Assembly: GCA_038146865.1 (NCBI GenBank)
Contig: JAYQSL010000007.1
Location: forward strand, 131,190 to 195,189
Length of the DNA stretch: 64,000 nt
Source of the DNA: Rhodospirillaceae bacterium
GTDB taxonomy: Bacteria > Pseudomonadota > Alphaproteobacteria > MPNO01 > UBA2964
Direction of reading: 5' to 3'
Below the pieces are notes generated by a model. The model was not told where the DNA came from, did no database searches, and worked only from the letters and a program-made list of their open reading frames with translations. The number at the start of each line of letters is the position of its first letter. Within the stretch, counting starts at the first letter, position 1. This document shows, piece by piece, positions 137 to 20,675 of the stretch. Both the position numbers and the translations under genes were made by a program.

Positions 137-1495
137 TTAGCGGTTCGTTAGCTTAAATTCTATCCGTCGATTCCTCTGCAGAGCTTCTTTGCTCGATGAA
201 TTTTCAATTGGATGGAATTCTCCAAACCCGGCTGCAACGAGTCTTTCCGGCGGAAGGCCGTTTTGAATTAATAGCTTGATTACCGAGACGGCCCTGGCTG
301 TTGAGAGTTCCCAGTTGGATCGAAATTCTCTATTTCTAATTGGTCGTCTGTCGGTGTGTCCATCTACTCGTAAAACCCAATCGAGGTTGGCAGGGATTTT
401 TGCTCCAATTTCACTAAGCGTTTTTCCTAATTCAGCTATCTTTCTGCGGCCCACTGCTTTTATTTCACTAGACCCTGAACCAAATAGAATTTCTGATTGA
501 AAAACGAACCTATCTCCGACTATTCGAATATCACCACGATCTCCAATGACTTCACTCAATTTACCAAAAAATTCAGATCGATATCTAGCCAGTTCCTCTA
601 CTTTAGCTGCTAGTGCCGCATTAAGTCGTTTTCCAAGATTTATAATTTTCACTTGTTGTCTTTTGCTTTTCTCCTCGTAAGCCTCCAGGGCGGCTGAGAT
701 TTTTTCTAATTTTTGTCGAAGGGCAGCAATCTGTTGATTTAGAAGTTCAACCCTTGCCCGCTCGGTCGCTGACAGATTTTTTTCCTCCAACAGTCCTTTC
801 TCCAAAGCACCAGCGCGAGTCTTCATTTGGCTTAGCAATAATTTGGTCTCTTTTAACTGCTTTTGCGCGAGCAAAGTACGTTCGGTCTCAGTGCTGAGTT
901 TTGCCTCCAGTTCTTTCGATTTGTCTCTCAATGATGAGAGCTTTTTCTCGCTTAATTTTAAGGCGGTTGCGCTCAGGGAAACCTGATTTTCTAGTTTGGT
1001 ACGTAATTTTTTTAGAGCCTCTATATCTCTTTGAAGCTGTTCAAGTTCTCCTAATTGCAACTTAATTTTTTCACGGTCGACTTCAATTTCCTTGTAAGAA
1101 CTTGCAAGCTCTAAAGTTGTTTGATTCAGTTTAGTTTCAGATATCAACAATGCTTCAGCAAGTTTTTGCTTTTCTTGCTTAGACACAACCAGCTGATTTT
1201 TTAGCGCATCTCTCTCCGAGACGGTATTTTCTAGATCTATATCCAGTTGATTTATTTTTGATCTTAGCTCGGCGCTTTCTTTTTTTTCGATGGCAAGTAA
1301 CTCAGATAGCTCAGCAACTTGCTGCGTCAGCCGACTTAAAGCTTGGTCTCGGCCCGAGAGGGTTTCTGTCAGAAAGTGTTGAGCAAGGGTAAACACCATC
1401 AATAAAAATAAAATGATGATCAAAAGAGTTGATATCGCGTCCACAAAGCCAGGCCAAATATTTGTAGGGGAATGACGTCTCATGTGAAGCTGCAA
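137..1495 (-). CDS. MotB-like stator/anchor protein: N-terminal TM and plug motif, roughly 260-aa coiled coil, C-terminal OmpA/MotB peptidoglycan-binding domain
   Basis: A 452-aa ORF. The N-terminus, NIWPGFVDAISTLLIIILFLLMVF, is the MotB-type TM segment with the conserved Asp. Residues about 50-310 are heptad-rich in E, K, L and Q. The C-terminus, RIVGDRFVFQSEILFGSGSSEI...RVDGHTDRRPIRN...SNWELSTARAVSV...RRIEF, is a canonical OmpA_C/MotB_C. It lies 19 nt downstream of a MotA-like gene. Confidence 0.85.
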   Translation of the reverse strand: MQLHMRRHSPTNIWPGFVDAISTLLIIILFLLMVFTLAQHFLTETLSGRDQALSRLTQQVAELSELLAIEKKESAELRSKINQLDIDLENTVSERDALKNQLVVSKQEKQKLAEALLISETKLNQTTLELASSYKEIEVDREKIKLQLGELEQLQRDIEALKKLRTKLENQVSLSATALKLSEKKLSSLRDKSKELEAKLSTETERTLLAQKQLKETKLLLSQMKTRAGALEKGLLEEKNLSATERARVELLNQQIAALRQKLEKISAALEAYEEKSKRQQVKIINLGKRLNAALAAKVEELARYRSEFFGKLSEVIGDRGDIRIVGDRFVFQSEILFGSGSSEIKAVGRRKIAELGKTLSEIGAKIPANLDWVLRVDGHTDRRPIRNREFRSNWELSTARAVSVIKLLIQNGLPPERLVAAGFGEFHPIENSSSKEALQRNRRIEFKLTNR

Positions 1496-1514: not shown

Positions 1515-2660
1515 TCAGCGGCTATTAGTGCGTTCAGCCGCAGCCGCAATCGTTCGTGATAAAACGCGAATTTCTGCCCTGAGTTCAGATACCATTTCGG
1601 CCCGGCCGCCTGATATTTCGTCGACTAAATTCACCAGGTTTTGCTCTATTTTGTTTAGACCAGACAACAATGCTTGACCTGTTTCGATTTGCTTTGGATT
1701 TCCCTCGCGAATGTCCAGGATGATGGGTTCCAGGGTTTGTTGAACTTTTGCCAGTTGAATCATCGTGTCTTCCGCTGTCCTCATCTGTTCAACTAAAACA
1801 TTTATATTTTCAGCAAATTTGGCGACGACTTGGCTTACAGAAAGACGGCTTTCCTCGCCTCTTTCAAGGGTCCGTTCAAGCCTCTCGAGGCTGTCCGCGG
1901 TTTTTTCAAGGAGAGCCTCAACATATGCGGGAACCCCGACTTCGCCTTCAGATAAATTTATAGGCCCTGACGAAAGCCTTGTTTGTCGCGCTAGCCATTC
2001 CTCAACGTCATTATAAAAATGGTTTTGGGCCTGGCTTGACTGCAGTTCCAGGAAGCCCAACACAAGCGATCCCGCAAGCCCAAAAAGAGATGAGCTAAAA
2101 GCTGTTCCCATTCCTTCGAGCGGCGCCTGAAGACCTTTTTTGAGATCACTGAAAACCGTTGTCATGTCGCCCGAACCAGCACTGAGACCGCTTATGACAC
2201 CAGCTACCGAATTTATTGTTTGGAGTAATCCCCAGAAAGTTCCGAGTAGACCGAGAAAAATCAATAAACCTATCATATATCTCGAGATATCCCGGGTTTC
2301 CTCCAACCTTGATGCCAACCCATCCAGCAATGATCGTTGCGATAAAGCAGATATCGTGGTCACAGTTTTCTGTTCCCCTAACATGGTTGCAATTGGCGCC
2401 AGGAGTTTGGGCGAGCCCCTCGTGTAAAGCCCGTTTTGATTAAAACGATAATCGTCAAGCCACGATGTTTCTTTTAATAGCAGAAGTGGTTGACGGATTA
2501 TGTGGATCACCCCAATTACTAGGACGCCGAGGATGACCCCATTCAGCCCTGGGTTCGATAGAAATGACTTAAAAAGGTCAGAGGAAATTAATAATACAAT
2601 AGCGACTACAATAATAAGAAAGACCACCATTCTTATGAGATATTGCCCTGGTTTTTTCAT
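1515..2660 (-). CDS. MotA/TolQ/ExbB-family proton-channel protein with extended C-terminal cytoplasmic coiled-coil tail
   Basis: A 381-aa ORF with an N-terminal TM pair. It carries the MotA_ExbB signature helices IGLLIFLGLLGTFWGLLQTI and GMGTAFSSSLFGLAGSLVLGFL; compare TolQ in the same window, GLFGTVWGIM...AEALFATALGLVAA. After the last TM there is a helical tail of about 170 aa rich in E, R and L. Confidence 0.85.
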   Translation of the reverse strand: MKKPGQYLIRMVVFLIIVVAIVLLISSDLFKSFLSNPGLNGVILGVLVIGVIHIIRQPLLLLKETSWLDDYRFNQNGLYTRGSPKLLAPIATMLGEQKTVTTISALSQRSLLDGLASRLEETRDISRYMIGLLIFLGLLGTFWGLLQTINSVAGVISGLSAGSGDMTTVFSDLKKGLQAPLEGMGTAFSSSLFGLAGSLVLGFLELQSSQAQNHFYNDVEEWLARQTRLSSGPINLSEGEVGVPAYVEALLEKTADSLERLERTLERGEESRLSVSQVVAKFAENINVLVEQMRTAEDTMIQLAKVQQTLEPIILDIREGNPKQIETGQALLSGLNKIEQNLVNLVDEISGGRAEMVSELRAEIRVLSRTIAAAAERTNSR

Positions 2661-2722: not shown

Positions 2723-3634
2723 CTAATTAATTAGAAGATCAACGCGGTCAGGTGGTACTGTTTGTCCTTTCGACCCAAGGGCGCGAACATCTATCCTCGT
2801 GCTGCGGATACCAAGTCCTATCAGAGAAGCCCGCACTGCAAGCGCTCGAGAAAGAGACAAACGGCGTGCTTGACTCTCTGTGATCCCAGTTGACGAGGCA
2901 TAGGCTCTGACTTCTACCCTGCTTCTTTCTGAGGCCTTTAATTCACTAGCAATATCGCCCAATGTCTTCTGGGCTTGGGCGTTTAAATTAGAAGTTCCAA
3001 TCCCAAAATTAATGGTAAACGGTTTTTTGTCAGTTTTAACAGGTGCTTTGGCCAGAACTGTGCTCTTATTTGCAGTTTTTGGTTTAGTTTTTGTATTTAA
3101 GAGGTCTTTAGGTTTGGGAGCAGAAACCACAGCTTTCCCCGACTTTACAGGGCTTTTGGGTTGTACTGGCGGTGCGCTTTTAGTGAGTATTTTTGGTTCG
3201 ACAGTATCTCTAGAGGATGATCTCGTTACGCTAATGGGTGTCTGTTTTTTTTGACCTAAATTTCTTCTAATTCTTTTTTTAAGATCGGGGGGAGCGGTCA
3301 AGGAGGGATCCCATTTGGATTTCTTCTCATGACCTATCTTCCCGGCTGGGGGTATGAACTTTCCTCCAATTATAATCGGAAACTGGGGTTTTTTACCTCC
3401 AAGAGGAAATGGGACGACCGAAAAAGAGTAATCATTTTGCTCTGCAGTCCTTTTGCCCAAAAGTGCTGACGCTACATTTGGTGGAGCTCCTAATTTTTCG
3501 AGGACCTTGTTATCCACAAAAACGCTTTGAGCATTTGAGGTTCCACTAAATACGATGGCAATACAGCCAAAAAATAAAGTAAAAATAGAATGCATTTTTA
3601 ACAAACCAGCGCTTGGGCGTCTCAGTTTGGTCAT
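2723..3634 (-). CDS. Secreted or periplasmic OmpA-like domain protein with Pro/Lys-rich linker; first gene of the MotA/MotB-like operon
   Basis: The signal peptide is MTKLRRPSAGLLKMHSIFTLFFGCIAIVFSGTSNA-Q. The ATG at 3634 is preceded by GGAGCTGAGGGGGAT, a ribosome-binding site; the ORF tool calls its start at 3679. A central low-complexity region, PKxP/KTKPK, follows. The C-terminal roughly 100 aa fit the OmpA_C pattern (FTINFGIGTSNLNAQAQKTL...RVEVRAYASSTG...ARRLSLSRALAVRASL...DRVDLLI). Confidence 0.75.
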   Translation of the reverse strand: MTKLRRPSAGLLKMHSIFTLFFGCIAIVFSGTSNAQSVFVDNKVLEKLGAPPNVASALLGKRTAEQNDYSFSVVPFPLGGKKPQFPIIIGGKFIPPAGKIGHEKKSKWDPSLTAPPDLKKRIRRNLGQKKQTPISVTRSSSRDTVEPKILTKSAPPVQPKSPVKSGKAVVSAPKPKDLLNTKTKPKTANKSTVLAKAPVKTDKKPFTINFGIGTSNLNAQAQKTLGDIASELKASERSRVEVRAYASSTGITESQARRLSLSRALAVRASLIGLGIRSTRIDVRALGSKGQTVPPDRVDLLIN

Positions 3635-3741
3635 CGATCTATCCCCCTCAGCTCCATCTTTGGTCCTTGAGTAATTCACCAGATCAAACTAGGAATCCCG
3701 TAACCATAACCCAGACACTATAGCCCCACAATGAATTAACG

Positions 3742-4587: not shown

Positions 4588-5154
4588 TTAGTCTTTTGCT
4601 CGCTCAATATACGAGCTGTCTGAAGTGTTAACGACAATCTTGGTGCCGGCCTGAATGTGGGGTGGCACCATTACCCGAACACCATTTTCGGTGACCGCAG
4701 GTTTATATGAGGAGGAAGCGGTTTGTCCCTTCACGACCGCGTCGGCTTCTGTGACCAAAAGCGTGACTGACGTCGGTGGTGTAAGTCCAACCGGAGTTCC
4801 TTCTACCGTATTTACGAGGACTTCCATCCCGTCAGTCAAAAATATAGCGGCCTCACCAGCCATATTTTTTTCAACGGTAAATTGATCATACGTTTCGGAA
4901 TCCATCAGAGTAACCAGGTCGCCATCCATAAAGAGTATCGTGCACGTTTTTTCATCTGTCGTAAGTTTCTCAACAGTTTCTTGGGTTCTGAACCTCACGT
5001 TAGTTTTTACTCCAGTTGAAACATCACGCATATCTAAGGCAATGAAAGCGTTTCCTTTCCCCGGTAAAATCAAGTCATATTTGAGAATGCTGTAGCGTCT
5101 GCCCTCATGCTCGATAACGTGATTGGGACGAAGTGTATTGGCGTTCACCTTCAT
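4588..5154 (-). CDS. efp: Elongation factor P
   Basis: 188 aa. The N-terminus VIEHEGRRYSILKYDLILPGKGNAFIALDMRD contains the conserved PGKG lysine loop. Confidence 0.95.
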   Translation of the reverse strand: MKVNANTLRPNHVIEHEGRRYSILKYDLILPGKGNAFIALDMRDVSTGVKTNVRFRTQETVEKLTTDEKTCTILFMDGDLVTLMDSETYDQFTVEKNMAGEAAIFLTDGMEVLVNTVEGTPVGLTPPTSVTLLVTEADAVVKGQTASSSYKPAVTENGVRVMVPPHIQAGTKIVVNTSDSSYIERAKD

Positions 5155-5202
5155 GATAAATATCCGAATTTTGGCTGCTGGTTGATTCCTGGCCGGAACC
5201 TA

Positions 5203-6291
5203 TCACTCGGAGTCTAAAGGTTCAATATTGTCCTCGTAATGATGTGTCGCTCCTTTATGGTCTTCGACTATCCAACCCATTCCATCAACGCTTGGAGTAA
5301 TCCAGGTGTCTTCAGCTGAAACTTTCCCGAAACCTCCGGGTATGTCCAACACATATAGAGGTTGTGCAATCCCAGAGAGACGACCCCGAATAGATCGAAC
5401 TAAATTCCGACCGTGCCTCAGTGTGGTCCGAAAATGAGAAGTTCCTTGGGCTAAGTCGCCCTGATGCAAGTAATAGGGCTTTATACGATTTTCAACTAAG
5501 GTACGCATCAGTTTTGTAAGGTCTGTTGAGTTATCATTGATACCTTTTAAAAGAACAGTTTGACTCAGCATTGGGATACCAGAGTCAATTAATTTTCGGA
5601 TCGCTTCCTCTGCTGATTGATCTATCTCTGACGCGTGATTGCAGTGTAGTACAATCCAAAGCGGCTTCTGAATATTGAGCGCTTTTAACATAGCGCTCGT
5701 GATCCTATCAGGATCAAGGGCTGGGACCCGAGTATGAATTCTAATCGTCCCAACATGGTCGATTTTCTCAAGTCTGTTCAGGATATCATTGATTCTTTGA
5801 GGTGCTAATATCAGCGGATCTCCTCCCGATAATATCACCTCCCAGATCTCATTGTTTTGTTTTATGTAGTCGAGGGCTTTGTCGAGTTGGGCCTCGCTTA
5901 AACGGGCCCCTCCAACTGAATTTCTCCGGAAACAAAATCGGCAGTATACCGGACAGGACGATACCGGCATGAGTAAAACGCGGTCTGGATAGCGGTGAAC
6001 GAGACCAAACACTGGAGAATGGTGATCATCGCCGATTGGATCAGACAATTCTTTTTCGGACTTTTCATTTTCATCTGTTGTCGGCACGAATTGGCGAACC
6101 AGAGGATCAGACTTGCTTCTCCCTTTAAGCCGTTCCAGAAGTTTTTTCGGGATCCCGATGGGAAGGGTTCTTGCGGCGTCTTCGCAAGCCTCGGTATCTG
6201 AAAGACATACCAAGTTGGCGTCCACAAGTGCTGAGAGGATTTGCGAATGTTTTTTGCGCTTTCTTCCGGTAAGTTTTTGGATGATATTCAT
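5203..6291 (-). CDS. epmB: EF-P beta-lysylation protein EpmB (lysine 2,3-aminomutase family, radical SAM)
   Basis: Radical-SAM CPVYCRFCFRR motif and KamA-family length of 362 aa. It sits next to efp and diverges from epmA. Confidence 0.85.
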   Translation of the reverse strand: MNIIQKLTGRKRKKHSQILSALVDANLVCLSDTEACEDAARTLPIGIPKKLLERLKGRSKSDPLVRQFVPTTDENEKSEKELSDPIGDDHHSPVFGLVHRYPDRVLLMPVSSCPVYCRFCFRRNSVGGARLSEAQLDKALDYIKQNNEIWEVILSGGDPLILAPQRINDILNRLEKIDHVGTIRIHTRVPALDPDRITSAMLKALNIQKPLWIVLHCNHASEIDQSAEEAIRKLIDSGIPMLSQTVLLKGINDNSTDLTKLMRTLVENRIKPYYLHQGDLAQGTSHFRTTLRHGRNLVRSIRGRLSGIAQPLYVLDIPGGFGKVSAEDTWITPSVDGMGWIVEDHKGATHHYEDNIEPLDSE

Positions 6292-6322
6292 CCGATCAGA
6301 GCCTCATAAATTATAAAATGAC

Positions 6323-7396
6323 ATGAAAACTGACCCAGCTCAAAAACTACTCCCGAAGTGGTGGGATCCAGATCGTATCGCTCTTTTGTTACCAAAGCTT
6401 AGGGCCCGAAATCAAATCTTATCCGTAATAAAAGATTGGTTTAGAAGCGAAGAATTCATAGAGGTAGAAACTCCTGTATTACAGGATTCACCAGGCTTGG
6501 AGCCTCATTTGATAGCTTTTCAAACAACGCTCCTGGAGCCTTTCTCTGCGTCTGGCTCAACAAAGTATCTTCAGAGCTCCCCCGAATACGCGATGAAAAA
6601 GCTTTTGGTTGCCGGTATGACGAAGATTTTTCAAGTAGCCCGATGCTACCGAAACGCAGAACGTTCGATGATTCATCACCCAGAATTTACGATGCTAGAG
6701 TGGTATCGCTCTGGCGCAACTTGGAGGCAGACAGCGAATGACACCGAGGCTTTGATCAAAGCTGCAGCATCTTTGACAGGAAGAAAGGAGGTAAATTTTA
6801 AAAACAACTTATGTGATCTTCGAAAACCGTTTGATTACCTCTCAGTTACTGAAGCATTTTTGAAATTTGCGAAAATAGATCTTCGATTATCTCTAATAGA
6901 TCCCAATTTTCCTGATAGGTCCAAATTGGCGAAGATGGCTAAAGACTCTGGGATTAGGATTGAAAATGAGGATAGTTGGGAGGTAATCTTTGACAGAATC
7001 TTGATTGAGAAAGTTGAACCAAAACTGGGTTTGGGTCGTGGAACTGTTCTTCATGACTATCCATTGCCACTTGCTGCATTAGCTCGAGGATCTTCTGATG
7101 ATCCTCGTGTGGCTGAGCGTTTCGAGGTCTACATCTGCGGTGTTGAGCTGGCCAATGGTTTTGGTGAGCTTTCTGATCCCGTTGAGCAAAGGCAAAGATT
7201 TGAGAGCGATCTTAAGAAAAAAAAGGCATTAGGTATGGCGGTTTATCCAATCGACGAGGACTTTTTAGCCGCGCTCGAAGTGGGTATGCCTAGTTCTTCT
7301 GGTGTAGCTCTCGGTTTGGATCGTTTGGTGATGTTGTTGGTAGGCGCGAAGTGTATCCAAGATGTAATCTGGGCACCTATCATAACAGACTCATGA
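6323..7396 (+). CDS. epmA: EF-P lysine-34 lysyltransferase EpmA (GenX/PoxA, class II LysRS paralog)
   Basis: Class II aaRS catalytic core without an anticodon-binding domain (FQVARCYRNAE...MLEWY...GLDRLVMLL). It lies in the efp neighbourhood. Confidence 0.85.
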   Translation: MKTDPAQKLLPKWWDPDRIALLLPKLRARNQILSVIKDWFRSEEFIEVETPVLQDSPGLEPHLIAFQTTLLEPFSASGSTKYLQSSPEYAMKKLLVAGMTKIFQVARCYRNAERSMIHHPEFTMLEWYRSGATWRQTANDTEALIKAAASLTGRKEVNFKNNLCDLRKPFDYLSVTEAFLKFAKIDLRLSLIDPNFPDRSKLAKMAKDSGIRIENEDSWEVIFDRILIEKVEPKLGLGRGTVLHDYPLPLAALARGSSDDPRVAERFEVYICGVELANGFGELSDPVEQRQRFESDLKKKKALGMAVYPIDEDFLAALEVGMPSSSGVALGLDRLVMLLVGAKCIQDVIWAPIITDS

Positions 7397-10401: not shown

Positions 10402-10578
10402 TTGGGGATAGCGGTGCTGTGCGGTTCGCGAGGCATATTAATCTCCGGGGCCTATCAACACCTAAAGGGAGCTGTCCCTGTCGGAACCCTGGTTCAGTTA
10501 CACGGCACCCACCTGCTATTGCGGGCCTAGGTGGATTACAGTTCAAACGGCCGTGCGGCTCCGCTATCTCGCAAAAAA
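10402..10578 (+). ncRNA. ssrS: 6S RNA (SsrS), boundaries approximate
   Basis: About 170 nt between the zapA stop and the 5-FCL gene, the conserved ssrS locus. The 5' GGGGAUAGCGG pairs with the 3' CCGCUAUCUC as a closing stem. The 3' end, ggcuccgcuaucuc, resembles the E. coli 6S 3' end. Central asymmetric GC-rich segments are present. Confidence 0.6.
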
Positions 10579-13548: not shown

Positions 13549-14150
13549 TTGCGAAACTGCGCGGTATAGTCGATGAAATAGGCCCAGATTGGGTCATAAT
13601 AGATGCAGGTGGAGTAGGGTATCTGGTTTTTTGCTCATCCAGAACTTTAAGCATTTTGGATGAAAAAGAGGGGCCTGTGTCTGTCTGGATTGAAACGCAC
13701 GTAAGGGAAGACCACATCCATCTTTACGGTTTTTCAAATGTTTCCGAAAAAGACTGGTTTAATTTGTTAACAACGGTTCAAGGTGTAGGAACAAAAGTTG
13801 GGTTGGCCTTGCTTAGTTCTATGTCTGTAGATGACTTAAAAGATGCGCTAATCACACAAGACGCAGCCCTGTTCACACAGGCTCAGGGTGTGGGACCCAG
13901 GCTGGCAGCTAGGATTTTGACAGAACTTAAAGACAAAGCAGGCACGTTATTAGTTGAGAGGGCTGGAAATAATAGAGAATTAGATCCAAAAAAACATCAA
14001 GCTGTTTCTGATGCAGTCTCTGCGTTAGTTAATCTCGGATACAAGCGACCTCAGGCGCTTGAAGCCGTGGGTAGGGCGGCAAAGCATTTATCAGAGGGTT
14101 CTGATATGGAGGAGCTCCTGGTATCGAGCCTAAAAGAGCTCAGCAAATGA
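13545..14150 (+). CDS. ruvA: Holliday junction branch migration protein RuvA
   Basis: MIAKLRGIV...GVGYLVFCS, 201 aa, overlapping both ruvC and ruvB by 4 nt. Confidence 0.9.
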
Positions 14151-15193
14151 CTGAGGGGCGTCTTATCAGTCTTGACACTACAGAGGGCGACGCAGCAGAT
14201 GTTGCGCTGCGTCCAGGGGCATTGGGGGAGTTTGTCGGCCAAGATAAACTCAAGCAAAACCTCAGTGTTTTCGTTGAAGCGGCAAGAAATAGAGGTGAAG
14301 CTTTAGATCACGTTCTTTTCCACGGGCCACCGGGGTTGGGGAAAACAACCCTCGCCCAGATAGTTGCACGGGAACTTGGAGTCGGTTTTCGTGGCACCTC
14401 TGGGCCAGTGATAGCAAAGGCTGGCGATCTTGCGGCAATTCTCACCAATCTTGAACCAAGAGATGTTCTATTCATCGACGAAATTCATAGGTTATCGCCT
14501 GCGGTGGAAGAGATCTTGTATCCTGCAATTGAAGATTTCCAACTTGATTTAATTATCGGGGATGGGCCTGCTGCACGCTCAGTCAAGATCGATCTTCCGC
14601 CATTCACTCTAGTTGGTGCAACAACGCGATCTGGTTTGCTGACAACACCTTTGAGGGAACGTTTCGGTATCCCCTTGAGACTTGAATTTTACCAACCTGG
14701 CGATCTGGAAACCATAGTGCGGCGGGCAGCAGGGTTGATGAAAATGAATATTACCCCCGACGGCGCAATGGAAATAGCCCGAAGGGCCCGTGGAACGCCG
14801 CGGGTAGCTGGCCGATTGCTTAGAAGGGTAAGAGACTTTGCCTCTGTAGAGAACGCAGAAAATATAGATGCAAAGACTGCGGATCTTGCGCTTAATCGGC
14901 TTGAGGTAGACCAGCTTGGTCTAGACGCCATGGATCGTCGTTATTTGACTTGTTTGGCAGAGAACTATGGGGGAGGCCCCGTGGGGGTGGAGACACTTGC
15001 CGCAGCGCTATCAGAACAGCGAGATGCCATCGAAGAGGTAATAGAACCATATCTCATTCAAAGAGGGCTTCTTCAACGTACACCTAAGGGGCGCGTTCTC
15101 ACTAAGACTGGCCTGAATTATGTCGGTGCTGCGTTGCCTGAGAGTGGACCGTTATTCGAACCCCTTTCAAGTGCTGAAAAATTCGATGACTGA
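14147..15193 (+). CDS. ruvB: Holliday junction branch migration helicase RuvB
   Basis: Walker [12 protein letters not shown] and conserved RuvB blocks; 348 aa. Confidence 0.95.
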
Positions 15194-15608
15194 TCCGAAA
15201 GATCAATTTTCTCATAATATTTCTGTGCGAGTTTATTTCGAAGACACCGACGCAGGTGGAGTCGTCTATCATACAAGCTTTCTTCGTTTTGCAGAGAGGG
15301 CTCGAACAGAGTTGCTTCGTTCTTTTGGTATTTCTCACCAAAGTTTAAAGGAAAAAGAGGGAATTATCATTGCTGTTCGGAGTTGCAATGCGGAGTATAT
15401 AAAGCCCGCAAAACTGGATGACATGCTTGAGATAACCTCTGAAAGTATAATACCTGAGGCGACTGGACTTAGGTTAAGCCAAACGATCAGACGTGGAAAA
15501 GAAATTTTGGTTTCGATAGGTGTGAGGCTCGTTTGTGTCAATGAGAGAGGTAAGCCAGTAAGGTTGCCTTTGCGGATACGAGAAAAATTCGAGATATTTC
15601 AGAGTTAA
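15186..15608 (+). CDS. ybgC: Tol-Pal-associated acyl-CoA thioesterase YbgC
   Basis: 4HBT hot-dog fold motif [14 protein letters not shown]. The start MTDPKD at 15186 overlaps the ruvB stop; the ORF tool's start is at 15120. Confidence 0.85.
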
Positions 15609-15635
15609 GTTCGAAAAAGAGGGAAAGAGCTGGAA

Positions 15636-16352
15636 ATGGAACAAGCAGAGGTTGCAGCAGCCGCACTAGCTGGATCACTGGGTCAAGATATGTCGGTTTG
15701 GGGTCTGTTCCTGCAAGCTGATGTCGTGGTCAAAGTCGTCATGATTGTCTTGCTTTTGGCGTCGCTTTGGAGTTGGGCGATAATATTTGAAAAATGGTTT
15801 CGTCTTCGGACTATGTGGGCTCGGGCAGATGCCTTTGAAGAGGCTTTTTGGTCAGGTGGATCACTTGAGGATTTGTTCTACCGAGCCGAGAAGGGGCGTC
15901 CCCATCCTATGTCTTCTATTTTTACCTCTGCAATGCGAGAGTGGCGCAGGTCGGGCACCCGGAATGTTGGCGATGTAGCTGGATTGGCGCAGAGGATAGA
16001 GCGCGTAATGTATGTAACGCTCGGTAGGGAAATGGATAAAGCTGAGAGACATATGACCTTCTTAGCATCGGTGGGATCCACGGCGCCTTTTATAGGATTA
16101 TTTGGCACGGTTTGGGGAATTATGAATAGTTTTCAGGCCATCGCTATGTCAAAAGATACGTCGCTTGCAGTAGTGGCCCCTGGTATTGCTGAGGCTTTAT
16201 TTGCGACAGCTCTTGGCTTGGTCGCAGCCATACCGGCGGTACTTGCATATAATAAATTAAGCTCCGATTTTGGCCGTTACGTAACAAGGTTGGAAGCTTT
16301 TTCCAGTGAGTTCGGAGCGATAATCTCTCGGCAATTGGAGGGTGAAAGTTAG
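15636..16352 (+). CDS. tolQ: Tol-Pal system protein TolQ
   Basis: MotA_ExbB family with three TMs (GLFGTVWGIMNSFQAI, VVAPGIAEALFATALGLVAAIPAV). Confidence 0.9.
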   Translation: MEQAEVAAAALAGSLGQDMSVWGLFLQADVVVKVVMIVLLLASLWSWAIIFEKWFRLRTMWARADAFEEAFWSGGSLEDLFYRAEKGRPHPMSSIFTSAMREWRRSGTRNVGDVAGLAQRIERVMYVTLGREMDKAERHMTFLASVGSTAPFIGLFGTVWGIMNSFQAIAMSKDTSLAVVAPGIAEALFATALGLVAAIPAVLAYNKLSSDFGRYVTRLEAFSSEFGAIISRQLEGES

Positions 16353-16824
16353 ATATGGTGATGATGTCGCCGTCATCAGGAGGAAGCCGTTCCGGGGAGG
16401 TCGCATTAGGCGTCGTCCTATGAGTGAGATTAATGTTACTCCAATGGTCGATGTGATGTTGGTGCTGCTTATTGTTTTCATGGTCACGGCGCCTCTTTTG
16501 ACCGTTGGTGTTCCGGTCGATTTGCCCAAAACGGCTGCAAATCAAATCGGTGGTCAGGACGAACCGCTGGTTGTTACCATCAATAAAAATGGCGATATCT
16601 TTCTTCAGGACTCCAAACTAGAGCTTGATCAGCTAGCCCCTAGGCTTTTGGCGATATCCAAAAATAGGCAGGACGCCCGAATTTTTCTGCGAGGCGACCA
16701 AACAATTTCATATGGAACGATAATGTCGGTCATGGGTAAACTGAATGGATCTGGCTTTAAAAAAGTTGCTTTGATTACTGAGTCGCTTCCTTCGGCGGCT
16801 AGGCGTGCCCGGCGGAGTAGGTGA
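16342..16824 (+). CDS. tolR: Tol-Pal system protein TolR (ExbD family)
   Basis: SEINVTPMVDVMLVLLIVFMVTAPLL is the ExbD/TolR signature. An alternative start is MSEIN at 16420. Confidence 0.85.
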   Translation: MKVRYGDDVAVIRRKPFRGGRIRRRPMSEINVTPMVDVMLVLLIVFMVTAPLLTVGVPVDLPKTAANQIGGQDEPLVVTINKNGDIFLQDSKLELDQLAPRLLAISKNRQDARIFLRGDQTISYGTIMSVMGKLNGSGFKKVALITESLPSAARRARRSR

Positions 16825-16827
16825 GAA

Positions 16828-17776
16828 ATGCCGAAGGCGCTACTTTTTTCGATCCTTCTTCATCTCTCAGTTTTTTGTGCTGCCTGGATTGGGATTCCAG
16901 CACTCTTTTCACCTCCTCCAGTCGTGTCGGCTAATATCCAGGTTGAACTTGTCCCTTCGGTCGAACAAAAAGATAAAAACCGGTTAAGGATAAAAAAGCC
17001 CCTAAGAAATCTGAGGCGAAGCCGATTCTGAAAGAGCCTGTCACCCCCATGATTGACACGAGTGCAAGGGAACCTTTGCCAGAGTTACCACTAAAAAAAA
17101 TGAAAAAGTCTGTTAAATCAGAGTCACTGCCGCCAATCCCGAAAAAAAAGCCACGACCCAAGCAGGTTAAGAAAATAGAAAAAAAGAAACTATCCGCTCT
17201 GATCCCGGCGCCGAAGAGAAAACCAATTCGTAAGTCCAAGCCCAAAAAAAACCACAGAAGTCCAATACGGCCGCTTTTAAATCACTACTGAAAGATCTCA
17301 AGGCTGAGAAAAAAAAGGATGATCAAACGAAATTCACTAAAATCTTAAAAGGCTTGGAAACGGAAAAACGACAATTGAAGGAAACAAATGAAACTAAACA
17401 AGAAATTAGAACTAACTCCCTCGAACAGAGACCAATTTCCTCCTTGGATCGGCGGAAAGAGATTTCCCAGCTAGTCGCAAAGATCCGAAACCAATTGAGC
17501 CGTTGTTGGAACCCGCCCGCGGGGGCGAAGAATTTGGAGAGGTTAAATGTTGAGGTCCGTATTAAGTTAAACCCGGATGGGTCCCTCAGGTCGCCAGCCA
17601 AAATCGGTGATTCATCAATAAAAGGGAAGCACCCAGCATACCAAGTTCTAGCGGAAAGTGCAGTGAGGGCTTTGAATGACCCGGATTGTATGCCTCTAAA
17701 ATTACCTCTTGAAGAATATCAAGACTGGAAAGATATCGCCTTTAACTTTGATCCAAGAGCCGCTTTAGGCCAATAA
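16828..17776 (+). pseudogene. tolA: tolA, disrupted in this sequence by two 1-nt frameshifts in poly-A tracts. N-terminal TM anchor 16828-16980 in frame 1, K/P-rich domain to 17250 in frame 3, TolA C-terminal domain 17252-17776 in frame 2
   Basis: The three consecutive ORFs read MPKALLFSILLHLSVFCAAWIG (TM anchor), KPVKDKKAPKKSEAKP...KPRPKQVKK (Lys/Pro-rich domain II), and ...VEVRIKLNPDGSL...AVRALNDPDCMPLKLP (TolA_C/TonB_C fold). Together they form one TolA in the canonical position between tolR and tolB. The frame switches sit at the A5 run 16975-16979 and the A8 run 17244-17251. Confidence 0.6.
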
Positions 17777-17785
17777 GAGAGAAAC

Positions 17786-19114
17786 ATGTTGAAAATTTTC
17801 ATAAATGGCATCTCGGTAGTCCTTCTGTCCTTCGGCATTTGTCTTGATCCCGGAAGAAGTTTTGCGCAGCTCAGAGTAGATATAACGGATGGAAATCCGA
17901 AGCCATTGCCTATCGCCGTAACAGAATTTTTTGGCGCTGACCCGAACGCTTCTAAGTTAGGAAATTCCATTGTCCGCGTTATTTCAAACGACCTTGAGAG
18001 GTCTGGGCTTTTCAAGTTAATCGATCGCAGGGCATTCATACAAAGCCGAGAGTCTTTGCGTCGGCTTCCTCAGTTTCCCGCTTGGCGCCAAATTAATGCT
18101 CAAGCCCTGGTTGTTGGGACTGCTCAAACGCTTGAAACCGGAAAACTGAGAGTGGATTTTCGTCTTTGGGATGTGTTTTCATCCAAGCAATTAATCGGCC
18201 GAAGGCTTGAGACTGAACCTAGTAATTGGCGAAGAGTGGCGCATATTATTTCCGATTCAATATACAAGAGAATTACCGGAGAGGATGGTTATTTCGATAC
18301 GAGGGTGGTTTATGTTGCTGAAACAGGGCCGGCAAAAAAAAGGGTAAAGCGCCTCGCGATTATGGATCAAGATGGAGCCAATTTACGTTACCTAACCGAC
18401 GGTTCAAATTTGGTTCTTACTCCCAGGTTTTCGCCAACCGCCCAGGAAATTACCTATTTGGCTTATGTAAACAATCGCCCTCGCGTTTATATCTACAACA
18501 TAGATACAGGTCAAAGGGAAGCACTGGGAGATTTTCCGGGGATGAGCTTTGCTCCCCGTTTTTCCCCGGACGGCAATAGGGTGATTATGTCGATAGCAAA
18601 GAATGGAAACTCAGACATATATACAATGGATTTGCCTACCCGTCGGACAAAAAGATTGACCAAACACCCTGCTATAGATACGTCTCCTTCTTTTGCCCCG
18701 GATGGGCGTCGAATTGTCTTTAATTCGGATAGAGGTGGTCAACAACAACTCTATGTCATGACCTTAAGAGATCGTAGGGCACGCCGAATAAGCTATGGGA
18801 CCGGTCGTTATGCGACTCCGGTTTGGTCTCCAAGAGGTGACTTAATCGCTTTTACTAAAATGTTCAAAGGGGAGTTTGCGATTGGCGTAATGCGTCCAGA
18901 TGGGTCTGGAGAAAGACTGTTGACCAAAGGCTTTTTAGTAGAAAGCCCAACTTGGGCACCAAATGGACGAGTTTTAATGTTTTTTCGGAAGGATCGTTTG
19001 GGAAAACAAAGCGGACAACCAAAGCTTTTTTCGATAGATCTCACTGGCTATAACGAGAGGCTGATTCCAACTCCTACATCATCCTCGGATCCAGCCTGGT
19101 CACCTTTAAATTGA
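17786..19114 (+). CDS. tolB: Tol-Pal system beta-propeller protein TolB
   Basis: 442 aa, with a signal peptide and repeated WD-like/PD40 blocks ([17 protein letters not shown]). Confidence 0.95.
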
Positions 19115-19171
19115 TGAGATAGAACAATTTCATGATTAAATAAAAGGATTCTCGAAAAACTTCCTTGAAGT

Positions 19172-19207
19172 TGAGCGCGTCCGCGTTAGTGTAAGAGAGG
19201 ACGCGCT
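19172..19207 (+). promoter_or_regulatory. Perfect 10-bp inverted repeat (GAGCGCGTCC..16 nt..GGACGCGCTC) in the tolB-pal intergenic region
   Basis: A GC-rich stem seen directly in the sequence, followed by a weak TATTGGTTTG. It could be a partial terminator or attenuator, or a processing site, separating tolB from pal. Confidence 0.3.
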
Positions 19208-19241
19208 CTATTGGTTTGAAACAGTGCGAAAGGATGGCCTC

Positions 19242-19790
19242 ATGCGCTTGAAGTTGATTAGTATAATAATTCTTGGCTTTGCCCTATCGGGATGCGAGAC
19301 CTCATCAGATGGAAGTGGGACCCTTGATACCGGTGCTGCCTCTGGGTCTGGTTCAACCAAGGTCTCTGTATTGAAATCGGCGGATATTAATTCAACCGAT
19401 ATAACAGCTCGTCCTTCGGAACCCGTTATTCCTCCTGGGACGCAGGAGGATCTTGTTGTCAATGTTGGCGATAGGGTTTTCTTTTCTACTGATAGTTTCC
19501 AACTTTCTGCTGAGTCCCGCGCCGTTCTCGAGAAACAGGCGAAATGGCTTAAACAAAATTTAGGAACGACCTTTAGTGTTGAGGGACATGCTGACGAACG
19601 GGGAACCAGAGAATACAATCTCGCTTTGGGAGAGCGCAGGGCATCAGCTGTAAGAGATTATTTGGTCGCACTTGGAGTTAATCCAAATCGTATCCAGACA
19701 ATCAGCTATGGAAAGGAAAGGCCGGTTGACCCCAGATCAGTTGCAGAGGCTTGGTCTAAGAACAGGCGCGGCGTATCCGTAGTAAAATAG
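19242..19790 (+). CDS. pal: Peptidoglycan-associated lipoprotein Pal
   Basis: Lipobox LSGC and an OmpA_C domain (VEGHADERGTREYNLALGERRASAVRDYLV). I place the start at MRLKLISIIIL, which has an upstream AAGGA; the ORF tool's start is at 19224. Confidence 0.9.
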   Translation: MRLKLISIIILGFALSGCETSSDGSGTLDTGAASGSGSTKVSVLKSADINSTDITARPSEPVIPPGTQEDLVVNVGDRVFFSTDSFQLSAESRAVLEKQAKWLKQNLGTTFSVEGHADERGTREYNLALGERRASAVRDYLVALGVNPNRIQTISYGKERPVDPRSVAEAWSKNRRGVSVVK

Positions 19791-19835
19791 TAGATCATTG
19801 ACATGAGGTGTCTTTAACGACCAGCGAGTGGGATT

Positions 19836-20675
19836 TTGTTGATCTCTCGGAGATTAGGATTTTGTCTAACCTTTGTTGGTTGCGTGTTGGTCAATGAAGT
19901 GGCAGTCGCGCAGTCGCAGGAGGCCGACGTGGCGTCATTTGCGCGCCAGGCGGTTCGCATTGATCAACTGGAGACTGAAATTAGAAGTCTGACGGGCCAA
20001 AACGAAAATATAAACTTCAAAATTGGTCAATTAGAGAAACAAATTAAAAATCTCAAAGATAGTTTGAGCTCTGCGACGTTACAAATCCAGCGTCTCCAGG
20101 AGTTCAGGTCTTCCGCCCAATCGTTGCCAAACGGCACGTTTGATAAAAGTCCGGTTTCGTCAGGAAAATCAACTTCGTTCGAATCGGCGATGCGTGTCCC
20201 GGGCGCAGAGAAAGGGGCAAAAGCTCTGGGAGTTCTTAGGGTCGGTCAGGGTTCAAGCGCTAAGCCAGTTGATCCCTCCGCAGGCCTCTCACCCAAACAG
20301 CTCTATGAAAAGGCACAAGGTTTTTTAACCAAGGGAAGAGAGTTTGAAAAAGCAGTCGAGCTTCTGCAGATATTTGTAGGCAGATATCCCAAACATAAAC
20401 TGGCCCCGAATGCTCACTACTGGTTGGGACGAGCATATTTTGTTCGTCAAGAATTTCGAAAAGCTTCATTCTCCTTTGCTGAAGGACTACAAAAGTTTCC
20501 AAAGTCGCCAAAAGCATCTGCCAACCTTTTAAATTTGGGTATGGCTTTCCTGAGGCTAGGTAAAAGGCGAGATGCTTGCACAACCTGGGGGCAACTATCA
20601 GTGGCTTATCCTAAAGCGCCTGACGCAATCAAACGGCGAGTAGAACGCGAGCGCAAAAAAGCCAAGTGTCTTTAA
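19836..20675 (+). CDS. cpoB: Tol-Pal system protein CpoB/YbgF (coiled coil plus TPR)
   Basis: Signal peptide, N-terminal coiled coil, C-terminal TPR repeats (YEKAQGFLTKGREFEKAVELLQIFVGRYPKHKLAPNAHYWLGRAYF). It lies directly downstream of pal. Confidence 0.85.
   Translation: MLISRRLGFCLTFVGCVLVNEVAVAQSQEADVASFARQAVRIDQLETEIRSLTGQNENINFKIGQLEKQIKNLKDSLSSATLQIQRLQEFRSSAQSLPNGTFDKSPVSSGKSTSFESAMRVPGAEKGAKALGVLRVGQGSSAKPVDPSAGLSPKQLYEKAQGFLTKGREFEKAVELLQIFVGRYPKHKLAPNAHYWLGRAYFVRQEFRKASFSFAEGLQKFPKSPKASANLLNLGMAFLRLGKRRDACTTWGQLSVAYPKAPDAIKRRVERERKKAKCL

What the first reader, a model, noticed from the sequence alone, without database searches (positions are those of the whole stretch)
137..1495. 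MotB-like protein with a 260-residue coiled-coil ruler between membrane anchor and peptidoglycan-binding domain
Canonical MotB/TolR/ExbD linkers are short. Here residues about 50-310 are almost pure heptad coiled coil (ELxxLxxE/K repeats). Fully extended, that could span about 35-40 nm, well beyond the inner-membrane-to-peptidoglycan distance. This suggests either a folded or bundled stalk, or a reach to the outer membrane or outside the cell. In Zorya the long tail is on the MotA-like subunit, not here.
Basis: seen in the sequence. Interest (0 to 1): 0.55.

Follow-up and report, generated by a model that had tools for sequence, protein, structure and literature searches.

The report
MotB-like anchor with rigid periplasmic rod
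This gene encodes a flagellar-stator-like membrane protein in which about 250 residues of unbroken two-stranded coiled coil (about 37 nm) sit between the membrane helix and the cell-wall-binding domain; it belongs to a widespread, unstudied alphaproteobacterial motor-like gene pair in which the rod's length changes between species almost only by whole seven-residue steps.

Summary
Window 137..1495 (minus strand) encodes a 452-aa protein (448 aa from the ATG). It has a MotB-type transmembrane helix with an invariant Asp, then 36 uninterrupted heptads (residues 46-298, about 37 nm), then a MotB-type OmpA-like peptidoglycan-binding domain.

It is neither low complexity nor a fusion. Thousands of homologues share the architecture, and the coil sequence itself is conserved. 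It passes the curated cut-off of NCBIfam NF006543 (PRK09039, "peptidoglycan -binding protein"), an annotated family on which I found no paper.

It always follows a 381-aa MotA/ExbB/ZorA-like gene of fixed length. The block EF-P, SuhB-like, OmpA-like, MotA-like, MotB-like is conserved across Alphaproteobacteria. A complete Tol-Pal cluster lies in the same window, so this is an additional system.

Across the family the rod spans about 120-540 residues (18-80 nm). 92 of 122 diverse members differ by exact multiples of 7, and most exceptions by +4 or +3. Selection therefore keeps an unbroken rod, not a length, and the "ruler" reading fails. Sequence signatures favour a parallel dimer, not a folded bundle.

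Best reading: the peptidoglycan-anchored axle of a non-flagellar, Zorya-related 5:2 ion-driven motor, tied to the wall by a tilted or in-plane rod. Its physiological output is unknown.

The parts
137..1495 (-). Gene for the MotB-like coiled-coil peptidoglycan-binding protein (452 aa from TTG at 1495; alternative ATG start at 1483 gives 448 aa; stop codon 137-139)
   Evidence: ORF list. NCBIfam NF006543 scores 437 bits against a cut-off of 305. A 100%-identical 448-aa protein, P0001, is in the database. The sequence around the start was read directly.
1376..1450 (-). Single transmembrane helix (about residues 16-40) with the invariant Asp19 (codon 1439-1441), the counterpart of MotB Asp32 / ZorB Asp26
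   Evidence: W14 P15 G16 F17 V18 D19 are invariant in alignment A1. AF2 starts a helix at residue 15 and runs it unbroken into the coil. The role of the Asp in ZorB and MotB is taken from PMC11946911.
602..1360 (-). Uninterrupted heptad coiled coil, residues 46-298 (36 heptads, about 37 nm); the helix continues to about residue 317 (nt 545)
   Evidence: Heptad table, per-position composition and Fourier test. A dynamic-programming register trace finds 0 shifts. Parallel-dimer signatures are present.
863..928 (-). Conserved motif R190-D191...E205-R206-T207-x-L-A-Q211 inside the coil; AF2 places its only helix break at 201-204. Specific to this subfamily and absent from the short family members.
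   Evidence: Invariant columns in A1. AF2 break and low pLDDT at 199-206. The motif is found in 115/120 close homologues but only 15/65 distant ones. Short members lack the central region.
140..529 (-). MotB-type OmpA-like peptidoglycan-binding domain (residues 323-452), with G379-H380-T381-D382 and N394..L397...R401 invariant
   Evidence: Pfam PF00691. PDB sequence hits are to MotB/PomB/MotS. Foldseek top hits are 3khn, 9ljl and 3s0y with TMt 0.7-0.8. Invariant columns are listed.
1515..2660 (-). Partner gene: 381-aa MotA/ExbB/TolQ/ZorA-like four-helix membrane protein with a conserved C-terminal helical tail of about 175 residues (predicted cytoplasmic)
   Evidence: PADLOC ZorA1 E 7.6e-16. 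Pfam MotA_ExbB scores 17.3 bits, below its cut-off. Homologues are 378-386 aa. The GLLGTFWG motif and TM4 are invariant. All top 50 Foldseek hits are ExbB, TolQ, MotA or ZorA, but the model is weak. The gene lies directly upstream of the MotB-like gene in 79/80 genomes.
2723..3679 (-). [quoted passage not shown] A functional link is not shown.
   Evidence: Pfam OmpA E 8.2e-13 at residues 225-304. A homologue lies upstream of the pair in 54/80 genome loci. Its length (236-578 aa in full ORFs) does not correlate with rod length.

Best explanation
The protein is the B subunit (central axle and wall anchor) of a non-flagellar MotAB/ZorAB-type ion-driven '5:2' membrane motor. The motor is conserved as a chromosomal gene pair in Alphaproteobacteria.

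Shown here:
- One TM helix carries the invariant channel Asp.
- That helix is predicted to continue, without a plug or a flexible linker, into about 250 residues of uninterrupted heptads.
- The heptad composition is that of a parallel two-stranded coiled coil.
- The coil ends in a MotB-type peptidoglycan-binding domain whose binding motif is intact.
- The upstream partner is a fixed-length MotA/ExbB/ZorA-like protein with a conserved tail.
- In the family the rod varies from about 120 to 540 residues, almost only by whole heptads.

Inferred:
- Two B chains form the rod, inside a pentamer of the partner.
- The tip binds peptidoglycan, so B is the fixed part. Proton flow through the Asp sites then turns the partner ring, with its cytoplasmic tail, around B.
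- The rod is rigid and much longer than the inner-membrane-to-wall gap, and its length is free to drift. It therefore cannot stand perpendicular as a spacer. It must lie tilted or nearly in the plane of the periplasm, as a tie-rod or leash joining the motor to a wall site tens of nm away.

The physiological output is unknown. The conserved housekeeping synteny, the neighbouring exported OmpA-like protein, and the existence of motor-less secreted copies of the rod-plus-wall-binding module all point to a cell-envelope role rather than motility or phage defence.
For: Architecture.

Family membership: NF006543 scores 437 bits, above its 305 cut-off.

Coil reality and regularity: there are 36 unbroken heptads, and 0/5000 shuffles reach the observed periodicity. 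85/134 diverse members fit a single register along the whole coil.

Heptad-quantised length:
- 110/116 close homologues share one residue class mod 7.
- 50/65 species genomes do so.
- 92/122 representatives at 50% identity do so, binomial p = 5.5e-52. 38/65 distinct lengths are multiples of 7, p = 2e-16. Of the 27 other distinct lengths, 19 are +3 or +4, the classical stammer and stutter.

Parallel-dimer signature: I+V is 25.5% at a against 5.6% at d, g-e' pairs are 7 opposite to 1 same charge, and e/g hydrophobicity is at most 0.14.

Partner: ZorA1 profile E 7.6e-16, and ZorB3 2e-24 for this protein. Partner length is fixed at 378-386 aa. Its structural neighbours are exclusively ExbB, TolQ, MotA and ZorA.

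Synteny: the partner is upstream in 79/80 genomes, and the order SuhB-like < OmpA-like < MotA-like < MotB-like holds in 43.

Not Tol: a complete ybgC-tolQRA-tolB-pal-cpoB cluster lies at 15.1-20.7 kb of the same window.

Gap size: about 90 A from inner membrane to peptidoglycan in E. coli, as cited in PMC11946911.
Against: - No experiment or multimer model supports the 5:2 stoichiometry, rotation or ion flow here.
- The partner's Pfam MotA_ExbB score is below threshold. Its AF2 model is poor (pLDDT 60), and its Foldseek E-values are only about 1e-3.
- Its profile aligns to the window's own TolQ only over the 21-residue GLLGT motif, at 43% probability.
- AF2 breaks the helix at 201-204, at a conserved motif, so a hinge or hairpin is not excluded.
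- Secreted family members have a signal peptide and no MotA-like neighbour. The rod plus wall-binding module can therefore work without any motor.
- The in-plane geometry is a deduction from lengths. The width of the periplasm in these organisms was not measured.
Confidence: 0.55

Rival explanations
1. Passive structural staple. The rod plus wall-binding domain is a periplasmic structural element that ties the inner membrane to the peptidoglycan or organises the periplasm. The MotA-like partner is only a membrane base, with no ion-driven movement.
For: Family members with a cleavable signal peptide in place of the MotB helix keep the same coil and wall-binding domain (E about 1e-124 to 1e-138) and have no MotA-like neighbour. 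A further exported OmpA-like protein often sits next to the pair. The unbroken regularity resembles structural rods such as tropomyosin (my own knowledge).
Against: Asp19 and the surrounding WPGFVD motif are invariant. The partner's channel-lining helices (GLLGTFWG; PLxGMGTAFSSS) are invariant. Pairing with the partner is near-universal, at 79/80. Such conservation is hard to explain without ion translocation.
Confidence: 0.2
2. Perpendicular molecular ruler or spacer. The coil stands upright and sets or measures a fixed distance between inner membrane and wall, or reaches the outer membrane.
For: In this protein the coil is rigid and about 37 nm long. Periplasmic coiled coils such as Lpp and the stalks of OmpM/SlpA-type proteins are known to set envelope spacing (my own knowledge).
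Against: The distance between anchor motifs ranges from 154 to 574 residues among 122 members, and from 203 to 406 among species genomes, roughly 18-80 nm of rod. This is far more variable than any plausible periplasm and exceeds its width. There is no co-variation with neighbour lengths. The tip binds peptidoglycan, not an outer-membrane component.
Confidence: 0.07
3. Folded stalk. The chain forms a helical hairpin at residues 201-204. A dimer then gives a four-helix bundle about half as long, which places the wall-binding domain near the membrane.
For: The AF2 monomer breaks the helix at 201-204 with low pLDDT, at an invariant E205-R206-T207 motif. The arm after the motif has near-constant length, 103 residues in 108/115 close homologues.
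Against: The heptad register is the same on both sides of the break. The hydrophobic stripe is a/d only, with charged e/g positions. Beta-branched residues at a and opposite-charge g-e' pairs point to a parallel dimer. The two arms are unequal, and the first arm varies by up to about 200 residues with no matching change in the second. Short family members lack the central region and the motif altogether. AF2 monomers commonly fold long single helices back on themselves (my own knowledge).
Confidence: 0.1
4. A Zorya-type anti-phage system. The pair is a ZorAB sensor that activates effectors on envelope perturbation.
For: The best profile hits in PADLOC are ZorB3 (2e-24) and ZorA1 (7.6e-16). The partner has a helical C-terminal tail.
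Against: NCBIfam ZorA models score 19.8 and 17.5 bits against cut-offs of 500 and 100. No ZorC/D/E-like gene or other conserved gene lies downstream. The pair sits in a conserved housekeeping block (efp, suhB-like) across many alphaproteobacterial orders, not in variable islands. The tail is about 175 residues, against a ZorA tail of about 70 nm. ZorB's wall-binding domain is fused to its TM helix without a linker.
Confidence: 0.05
5. Artefact: low-complexity sequence, or a frameshift that fused two genes.
For: None was found. The composition is biased (L 19%, E 14%, K 13%, A 10%).
Against: More than 8000 homologues have the same end-to-end architecture. There are many invariant residues within the coil. 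There is no internal repeat beyond the heptad: the best self-match scores 37, against a null of 38 +/- 5. Identical proteins were assembled independently from several metagenomes.
Confidence: 0.01

Closest known systems
Flagellar stator B subunits MotB / PomB / MotS
   Same: An N-terminal single TM helix with the essential Asp. [quoted passage not shown] The gene lies immediately downstream of a MotA-family gene.
   Different: MotB has a plug helix plus a flexible Pro/Gly-rich linker of about 50-60 residues (PMC12505986). Here there is no Pro over 350 residues, and a rigid 250-residue coiled coil continues straight from the TM helix. NCBIfam MotB/MotS/MotD equivalogs score 54-102 bits against cut-offs of 250-312. 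The partner has only about 60 residues between TM2 and TM3. There are no flagellar genes nearby.
ZorA-ZorB of the Zorya anti-phage system (5:2 motor; PMC11946911)
   Same: Closest profile relatives of both subunits. The B subunit has the Asp and a peptidoglycan-binding domain. The A subunit carries a C-terminal helical tail.
   Different: The long element is on the other subunit and in the other compartment. The ZorA tail projects about 70 nm into the cytoplasm, and the ZorB wall-binding domain is fused to its TM helix without a linker. Here B carries the rod in the periplasm and the A tail is short. There are no effector genes. The pair is conserved in the core genome rather than scattered in defence islands.
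TolQ-TolR-TolA-Pal and ExbB-ExbD-TonB
   Same: A 5:2-type inner-membrane motor coupled to a long, largely helical element that crosses the periplasm. ExbB and TolQ are the best structural neighbours of the partner. The envelope-related context is similar.
   Different: In Tol and Ton the long element is a separate protein (TolA, TonB), and the B subunit (TolR, ExbD) is short. Here rod and wall-binding domain are part of B itself. The window has its own complete Tol-Pal cluster.
GldL-GldM gliding / type IX secretion motor
   Same: A motor in which the dimeric central subunit carries a long periplasmic extension (my own knowledge; PMC8986121 was listed but not read).
   Different: The GldM periplasmic part consists of globular domains and does not end in a peptidoglycan-binding domain. 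No sequence similarity was seen here.
OmpA-family proteins with coiled-coil stalks (e.g. Capnocytophaga gingivalis OmpA, PDB 5wtl) and periplasmic spacers such as Lpp
   Same: [quoted passage not shown] 5wtl appears among the sequence and structure hits through the OmpA domain.
   Different: Those proteins are anchored in the outer membrane, have much shorter coils and are not motor subunits. What is known of their stalks comes from my own knowledge and was not tested here.
Tropomyosin (as a physical analogue only)
   Same: About 280 residues of uninterrupted heptads forming a parallel dimeric rod of about 40 nm (my own knowledge).
   Different: It is eukaryotic, cytoplasmic and unrelated. It is cited only to show how unusual an unbroken 36-heptad run is.

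Membership tests
NCBIfam NF006543 / PRK09039 'peptidoglycan -binding protein' (annotated family with no characterised member found) | Whole-protein score above the curated cut-off | tested here: met
   437.1 bits against a cut-off of 305. The match covers residues 158-452 against profile positions 56-350 of 350, in two stretches, because this protein's coil is about 100 residues longer than the model.
Flagellar MotB/PomB stator subunit | [quoted passage not shown] | tested here: met
   D19 is invariant. PF00691 matches at E 1.1e-15. MotB/MotS/PomB are the best structural matches.
Flagellar MotB/PomB stator subunit | Plug helix followed by a flexible Pro/Gly-rich linker; curated MotB family score | tested here: not met
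   There is no Pro between residues 16 and 367, and the helix is continuous over 15-200. MotB/MotS/MotD equivalogs all score far below their cut-offs. The plug plus linker definition is from PMC12505986.
Flagellar MotB/PomB stator subunit | Flagellar gene context and a MotA partner with a large torque-generating cytoplasmic loop | tested here: not met
   The neighbours are efp, a suhB-like gene and an OmpA-like gene. The partner's TM2-TM3 loop is about 60 residues. No flagellar family appeared among the 29 window ORFs scanned; the remaining window ORFs were not scanned.
Zorya (ZorAB plus effectors) | ZorA with a long coiled-coil tail; curated ZorA family score | tested here: not met
   NCBIfam ZorA_4 scores 19.8 against 500, and ZorA_2 scores 17.5 against 100. 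The tail is about 175 residues, against a ZorA tail of about 70 nm. The PADLOC ZorA1 and ZorB3 hits show relatedness only.
Zorya (ZorAB plus effectors) | Adjacent ZorC/ZorD, ZorE or ZorF/G genes | tested here: not met
   Downstream genes are not conserved: an ABC transporter on the opposite strand in 21 loci, an MFS transporter in 11. The called genes in a near-identical contig include no helicase or nuclease partner.
5:2 ion-driven motors (MotA/ExbB/TolQ/ZorA superfamily with a B-subunit dimer) | A-subunit fold and channel-lining motifs | tested here: inconclusive
   The GLLGTFWG motif and TM4 are invariant. ZorA1 matches at E 7.6e-16. All 50 top Foldseek hits are ExbB, TolQ, MotA or ZorA. 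Against this, Pfam is below its cut-off, the model pLDDT is 60, and hhalign to TolQ gives only 43% probability.
5:2 ion-driven motors (MotA/ExbB/TolQ/ZorA superfamily with a B-subunit dimer) | A5B2 stoichiometry and ion-driven rotation | not testable with these tools
   No multimer prediction or experiment was available.
Parallel two-stranded coiled coil | Heptad periodicity; an a/d core with beta-branched residues at a and Leu at d; charged e/g positions with g-e' complementarity; indels in whole heptads | tested here: met
   for this protein and alignment A1. for indel quantisation. The oligomer state itself is inferred, not measured.
Tol-Pal system | TolQ/TolR/Pal equivalog scores | tested here: not met
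   The true tolQ, tolR, pal, ybgC-like and cpoB genes of this genome lie at 15.1-20.7 kb. tolQ, tolR, pal and cpoB pass their cut-offs. The proteins studied here do not match those models.

The most novel reading that the evidence does not exclude
The pair defines an unrecognised class of housekeeping, vertically inherited 5:2 ion-driven motors in Alphaproteobacteria. The class would be a sister of the Zorya motor. Its axle is a tropomyosin-like periplasmic rod, anchored to the wall tens of nm from the motor. Through it, proton-motive force would be turned into torque or tension between inner membrane and peptidoglycan, or into rotation of a conserved cytoplasmic tail, for an envelope function not yet described. 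The strict heptad quantisation of rod length would then reflect the mechanical need for an unbroken torsion or tension element.
Probability: 0.3. Interest if true: 0.8.

Novelty: new variant of a known kind. Interest (0 to 1): 0.55.

Why it matters
Five classes of 5:2 motor are understood to some degree: MotAB, ExbBD, TolQR, GldLM and ZorAB. Each has revealed a different way of exporting proton-motive energy from the inner membrane.

This family is abundant. It gives 1432 clusters at 50% identity with E below 1e-30, and it matched at least 590 stretches in a collection with one genome per species. It is core-genomic in many alphaproteobacterial orders and carries a curated NCBI model, yet I found no paper about it.

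Its architecture is the mirror image of Zorya, with the long rod on B in the periplasm rather than on A in the cytoplasm. Its natural length series in exact heptad steps is a ready-made experiment on what a rigid periplasmic rod is for.

If the pair is an active motor, it adds a new mode of mechanical coupling between membrane and cell wall. If it is passive, it is a new kind of inner-membrane-to-wall tie. Either way, it shows that this 'linker' cannot be read as a distance ruler.

Tried and rejected
Literature. Seven full-text searches found no paper on the family. They covered PRK09039, MotAB-like or MotB-like with coiled-coil and Alphaproteobacteria, 5:2 motor surveys, stator-like or non-flagellar, and ZorA-like or ZorAB-like.
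- The two PRK09039 hits are incidental listings, judging by their titles and abstracts.
- The 2025 mBio survey of MotAB homologues does not describe coiled-coil B subunits.
- The S. meliloti Rgs/Tol paper and the R. rubrum PapS paper concern other proteins.

Internal repeats. The coil has no repeat beyond the heptad. The best 28-residue self-match scores 37, against 38 +/- 5 in heptad-preserving shuffles. It is therefore not a tandem-repeat expansion.

Length co-variation. Rod length does not correlate with the neighbouring OmpA-like protein (Spearman rho -0.14, p 0.33) or with the partner (rho 0.03).

PDB sequence search with the partner profile. It gave only spurious coiled-coil hits, apolipoprotein and stathmin.

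AF2 of the partner. Confidence was low (pLDDT 60), so the Foldseek result is used only qualitatively.

Promoter and terminator scan. Hits were at chance level. One sigma-70-like site lies just upstream of the OmpA-like gene, at 3745-3717 on the minus strand, and I give it no weight.

Hairpin model. Considered because of the AF2 break, and judged less likely (see the rival explanations).

Dimer prediction. I could not obtain model coordinates or run a dimer prediction.
Full report
**What is at the coordinates.**
Window 137..1495 holds a single ORF on the minus strand. It gives 452 aa from a TTG. An in-frame ATG four codons downstream (nt 1483) gives the 448-aa product that gene callers reported for identical and 92-94% identical proteins in marine metagenome assemblies. 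No clear ribosome-binding site separates the two starts. The TTG version matches the N-terminal length of more distant homologues, so the start is left open.
- Pfam finds one significant domain, OmpA (PF00691, residues 337-443, E 1.1e-15).
- NCBIfam places the whole protein in NF006543 (PRK09039.1-2, 'peptidoglycan -binding protein') at 437 bits against a cut-off of 305. The flagellar MotB, MotS and MotD models stay far below their cut-offs.

- The N-terminus has basic residues followed by one hydrophobic helix. W14-P15-G16-F17-V18-D19 is invariant in 24 homologues. Asp19 is the counterpart of the channel Asp of MotB and ZorB.
- There is no proline from residue 16 to 367.
- Written in sevens, residues 46-298 form 36 consecutive heptads with no register change.
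- Across homologues, large hydrophobic residues occupy 72% of a and 53% of d positions, but at most 16% of b, c and f. The e and g positions are mostly charged.
- The 3.5-residue periodicity of hydrophobicity is about 15 standard deviations above shuffles, and 0 of 5000 shuffles reach it.
- AF2 predicts helix 15-200 and helix 205-317, then an OmpA fold, at mean pLDDT 77. The best structural neighbours of that fold are the periplasmic domains of MotB-like DVU_2228, MotS, H. pylori MotB and PomB, with TM about 0.7-0.8 on the target.
- 252 residues at 0.1485 nm per residue give 37 nm.

**Not an artefact.**
- The search returned 8000 scored homologues, which is the cap. The best 120 are all full-length with the same architecture.
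- The coil itself carries many invariant or near-invariant residues: R190, D191, E205, R206, T207, Q211, and the stretch LNxQIAALRQQLxxISAALEASE...NLGxRLNAALAxKVEELARYRSEFFG.
- There is no internal repeat beyond the heptad.

**The key new fact: length varies in whole heptads.**
I measured the distance between the N-terminal anchor motif and the EFFG motif just before the wall-binding domain.
- Among the 120 closest homologues the values are 246, 253, 260... 344. 110 of 116 share one residue class mod 7.
- Among one-genome-per-species loci the distance runs from 203 to 406, and 50 of 65 are multiples of 7.
- Among 122 representatives that share less than 50% identity with each other, it runs from 154 to 574. 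92 are multiples of 7, 16 are +4 and 6 are +3.
- The excess of the zero class has binomial p = 5.5e-52 over proteins and 2e-16 over distinct lengths. The exceptions are enriched for the classical stutter (+4) and stammer (+3), p = 9e-5.
- A register trace finds no shift at all along the coil in 85 of 134 members. The longest unbroken run is 536 residues.
- Most variation lies N-terminal of the conserved ERTxLAQ motif. The arm after it is 103 residues long in 108 of 115 close relatives.
- The shortest members keep only the membrane-proximal and domain-proximal parts of the coil.

Selection therefore preserves an unbroken rod and is indifferent to its length, across about 18 to 80 nm.

**Consequence for the 'ruler' idea.**
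A perpendicular spacer should have a conserved length that matches the envelope. The inner-membrane-to-peptidoglycan gap is about 9 nm in E. coli, as cited in PMC11946911. Whole periplasms are a few tens of nm wide (my own knowledge). A rigid rod of 37 nm, and up to 80 nm in relatives, that ends in a peptidoglycan-binding domain cannot stand upright. It must be tilted or lie roughly in the plane of the periplasm. Rod length does not co-vary with the length of the partner or of the neighbouring OmpA-like protein.

**Extended dimer or folded bundle?**
AF2 places its only break at 201-204, inside an invariant motif, which raised the hairpin possibility. Several points argue against it:
- The heptad register is the same before and after the break.
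- The hydrophobic stripe is limited to a and d.
- Ile and Val are 25.5% at a against 5.6% at d.
- Seven of eight charged g-e' (i, i+5) pairs are of opposite sign.
- The two arms are unequal, and only the first arm varies in length.
- Short relatives lack the central region.

These are the textbook marks of an in-register parallel two-stranded coiled coil. That fits the two B chains of a 5:2 motor. The inference is from sequence only. I could not run a dimer prediction.

**The partner and the neighbourhood.**
- Nineteen to 31 nt upstream on the same strand lies a 381-aa protein (1515..2660).
- It has four hydrophobic helices. It carries an invariant GLLGTFWGLLQT helix and an invariant PLxGMGTAFSSSLFGLAGS helix. 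It ends in a conserved helical C-terminal tail of about 175 residues.
- Pfam MotA_ExbB is below threshold. PADLOC ZorA1 matches at E 7.6e-16 over residues 124-329, and the B protein matches ZorB3 at 2e-24.
- Its AF2 model is poor (pLDDT 60). Even so, all 50 best Foldseek hits are ExbB, TolQ, MotA or ZorA chains.
- Its homologues are 378-386 aa long, in sharp contrast to the variable B protein.
- In 80 genomes, mostly Rhodospirillales, Kiloniellales, Sneathiellales, Acetobacteraceae, Azospirillum, Dongiaceae, Geminicoccaceae and unclassified Alphaproteobacteria, the partner precedes the B gene in 79. The remaining locus has no upstream sequence.
- An exported OmpA-like protein precedes the pair in 54 of the 80. 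A SuhB-like inositol monophosphatase is found in 57 and EF-P in 52.
- Downstream genes are not conserved, and no Zorya effector is present.
- The same window carries a complete ybgC-tolQ-tolR-tolA-tolB-pal-cpoB cluster at 15.1-20.7 kb. The pair is therefore an additional system, not the cell's Tol motor.

**A motor-less form of the module.**
Several family representatives (P0314, P0364, P0375, P0379) replace the MotB helix with a signal peptide but keep the coil and a nearly identical wall-binding domain. In the two contigs with enough flank there is no MotA-like neighbour. The rod plus wall-binding module can therefore act on its own in the periplasm. This keeps a purely structural role alive as the main rival.

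**Most likely mechanism.**
Shown:
- a MotB-type TM helix with the Asp;
- a predicted continuous rigid parallel-dimer-type rod;
- an intact MotB-type wall-binding domain;
- an obligatory MotA/ZorA-like partner with conserved channel helices and a conserved tail;
- core-genome synteny.

Inferred:
- The pair forms an A5B2 complex.
- The wall-bound rod makes B the fixed axle.
- Proton flow turns the A ring and its cytoplasmic tail.
- The rod acts as a tilted or in-plane tie-rod or leash, not as a distance gauge.
- The output is envelope-related.

I put this at about 0.55. A passive staple gets about 0.2, a folded stalk about 0.1, a perpendicular ruler about 0.07, Zorya-type defence about 0.05, and an artefact about 0.01.

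**Comparison with known systems.**
- The protein works most like a MotB/ZorB anchor, but it fails the MotB membership tests for plug plus linker, curated score and context.
- It fails the Zorya tests for tail length, curated score and effectors.
- It is a bona fide member of the annotated PRK09039 family, on which I found no paper.
- Its closest conceptual relatives are Zorya (long rod on the other subunit and the other side of the membrane), Tol and Ton (rod supplied in trans by TolA or TonB) and GldLM (central dimer with a long periplasmic extension).
- The 2025 survey of MotAB homologues does not describe such B subunits.

**Verdict.**
The gene is an ordinary member of an existing annotated family, so it is not categorically new. 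The family as a system is an undescribed variant of 5:2 motors. Its heptad-quantised rod length is a clean finding that I did not see reported, and it overturns the ruler reading. Interest 0.55.

Noticed in passing
window 15120-20675 (+): Complete Tol-Pal cluster: ybgC-like thioesterase, tolQ, tolR, tolA, tolB, pal, cpoB/ybgF, preceded by ruvB (14147-15193) and followed by tilS-like and ftsH genes. It shows that the MotA-like/MotB-like pair is additional to Tol-Pal in this genome.
   Followed up: yes
window 10411-10565 (+): 6S RNA (Rfam RF00013, 70.6 bits against a gathering score of 46.4), the only Rfam match in the window. ARAGORN found no tRNA genes in the 64 kb.
   Followed up: no
proteins P0314, P0364, P0375, P0379; loci L085 3670-5238, L086 787-2478: A subgroup of the same family has a signal peptide in place of the MotB transmembrane helix, keeps the long coil and a nearly identical wall-binding domain, and has no MotA-like gene next to it. 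It is a motor-less secreted version of the rod module. L085 also carries transposase and integrase genes upstream.
   Followed up: partly
window 2723-3679 (-): [quoted passage not shown] Its full-length ORFs range from 236 to 578 aa, unrelated to rod length. Whether it is related to PapS of Rhodospirillum rubrum (PMC11369160) was not tested.
   Followed up: partly
window 4588-7396: EF-P (4588-5154, -) with both genes of its beta-lysylation pathway next to it: an EpmB-like radical SAM lysine aminomutase (5203-6291, -) and an EpmA/GenX-like truncated lysyl-tRNA synthetase (6323-7396, +). The efp and suhB-like genes travel with the motor pair in most genomes.
   Followed up: no
window 49736-51535 (+): A 599-aa ORF with no Pfam match at E 1e-5, the only large ORF scanned that had none.
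   Followed up: no
loci L009, L020, L038, L055, L062, L069, L075, L078: A few genome bins labelled Beta-, Gamma- or Deltaproteobacteria, Nitrospirae, Patescibacteria or Thauera carry the pair at 39-46% identity. This could be real spread outside Alphaproteobacteria or mis-binned contigs.
   Followed up: no
locus L018 7857-10667 (+): In a Geminicoccaceae bin, a second, 936-aa ORF with similarity to the coiled-coil MotB-like protein lies just downstream of the regular copy. The representative set also holds members of 926 and 953 aa.
   Followed up: no
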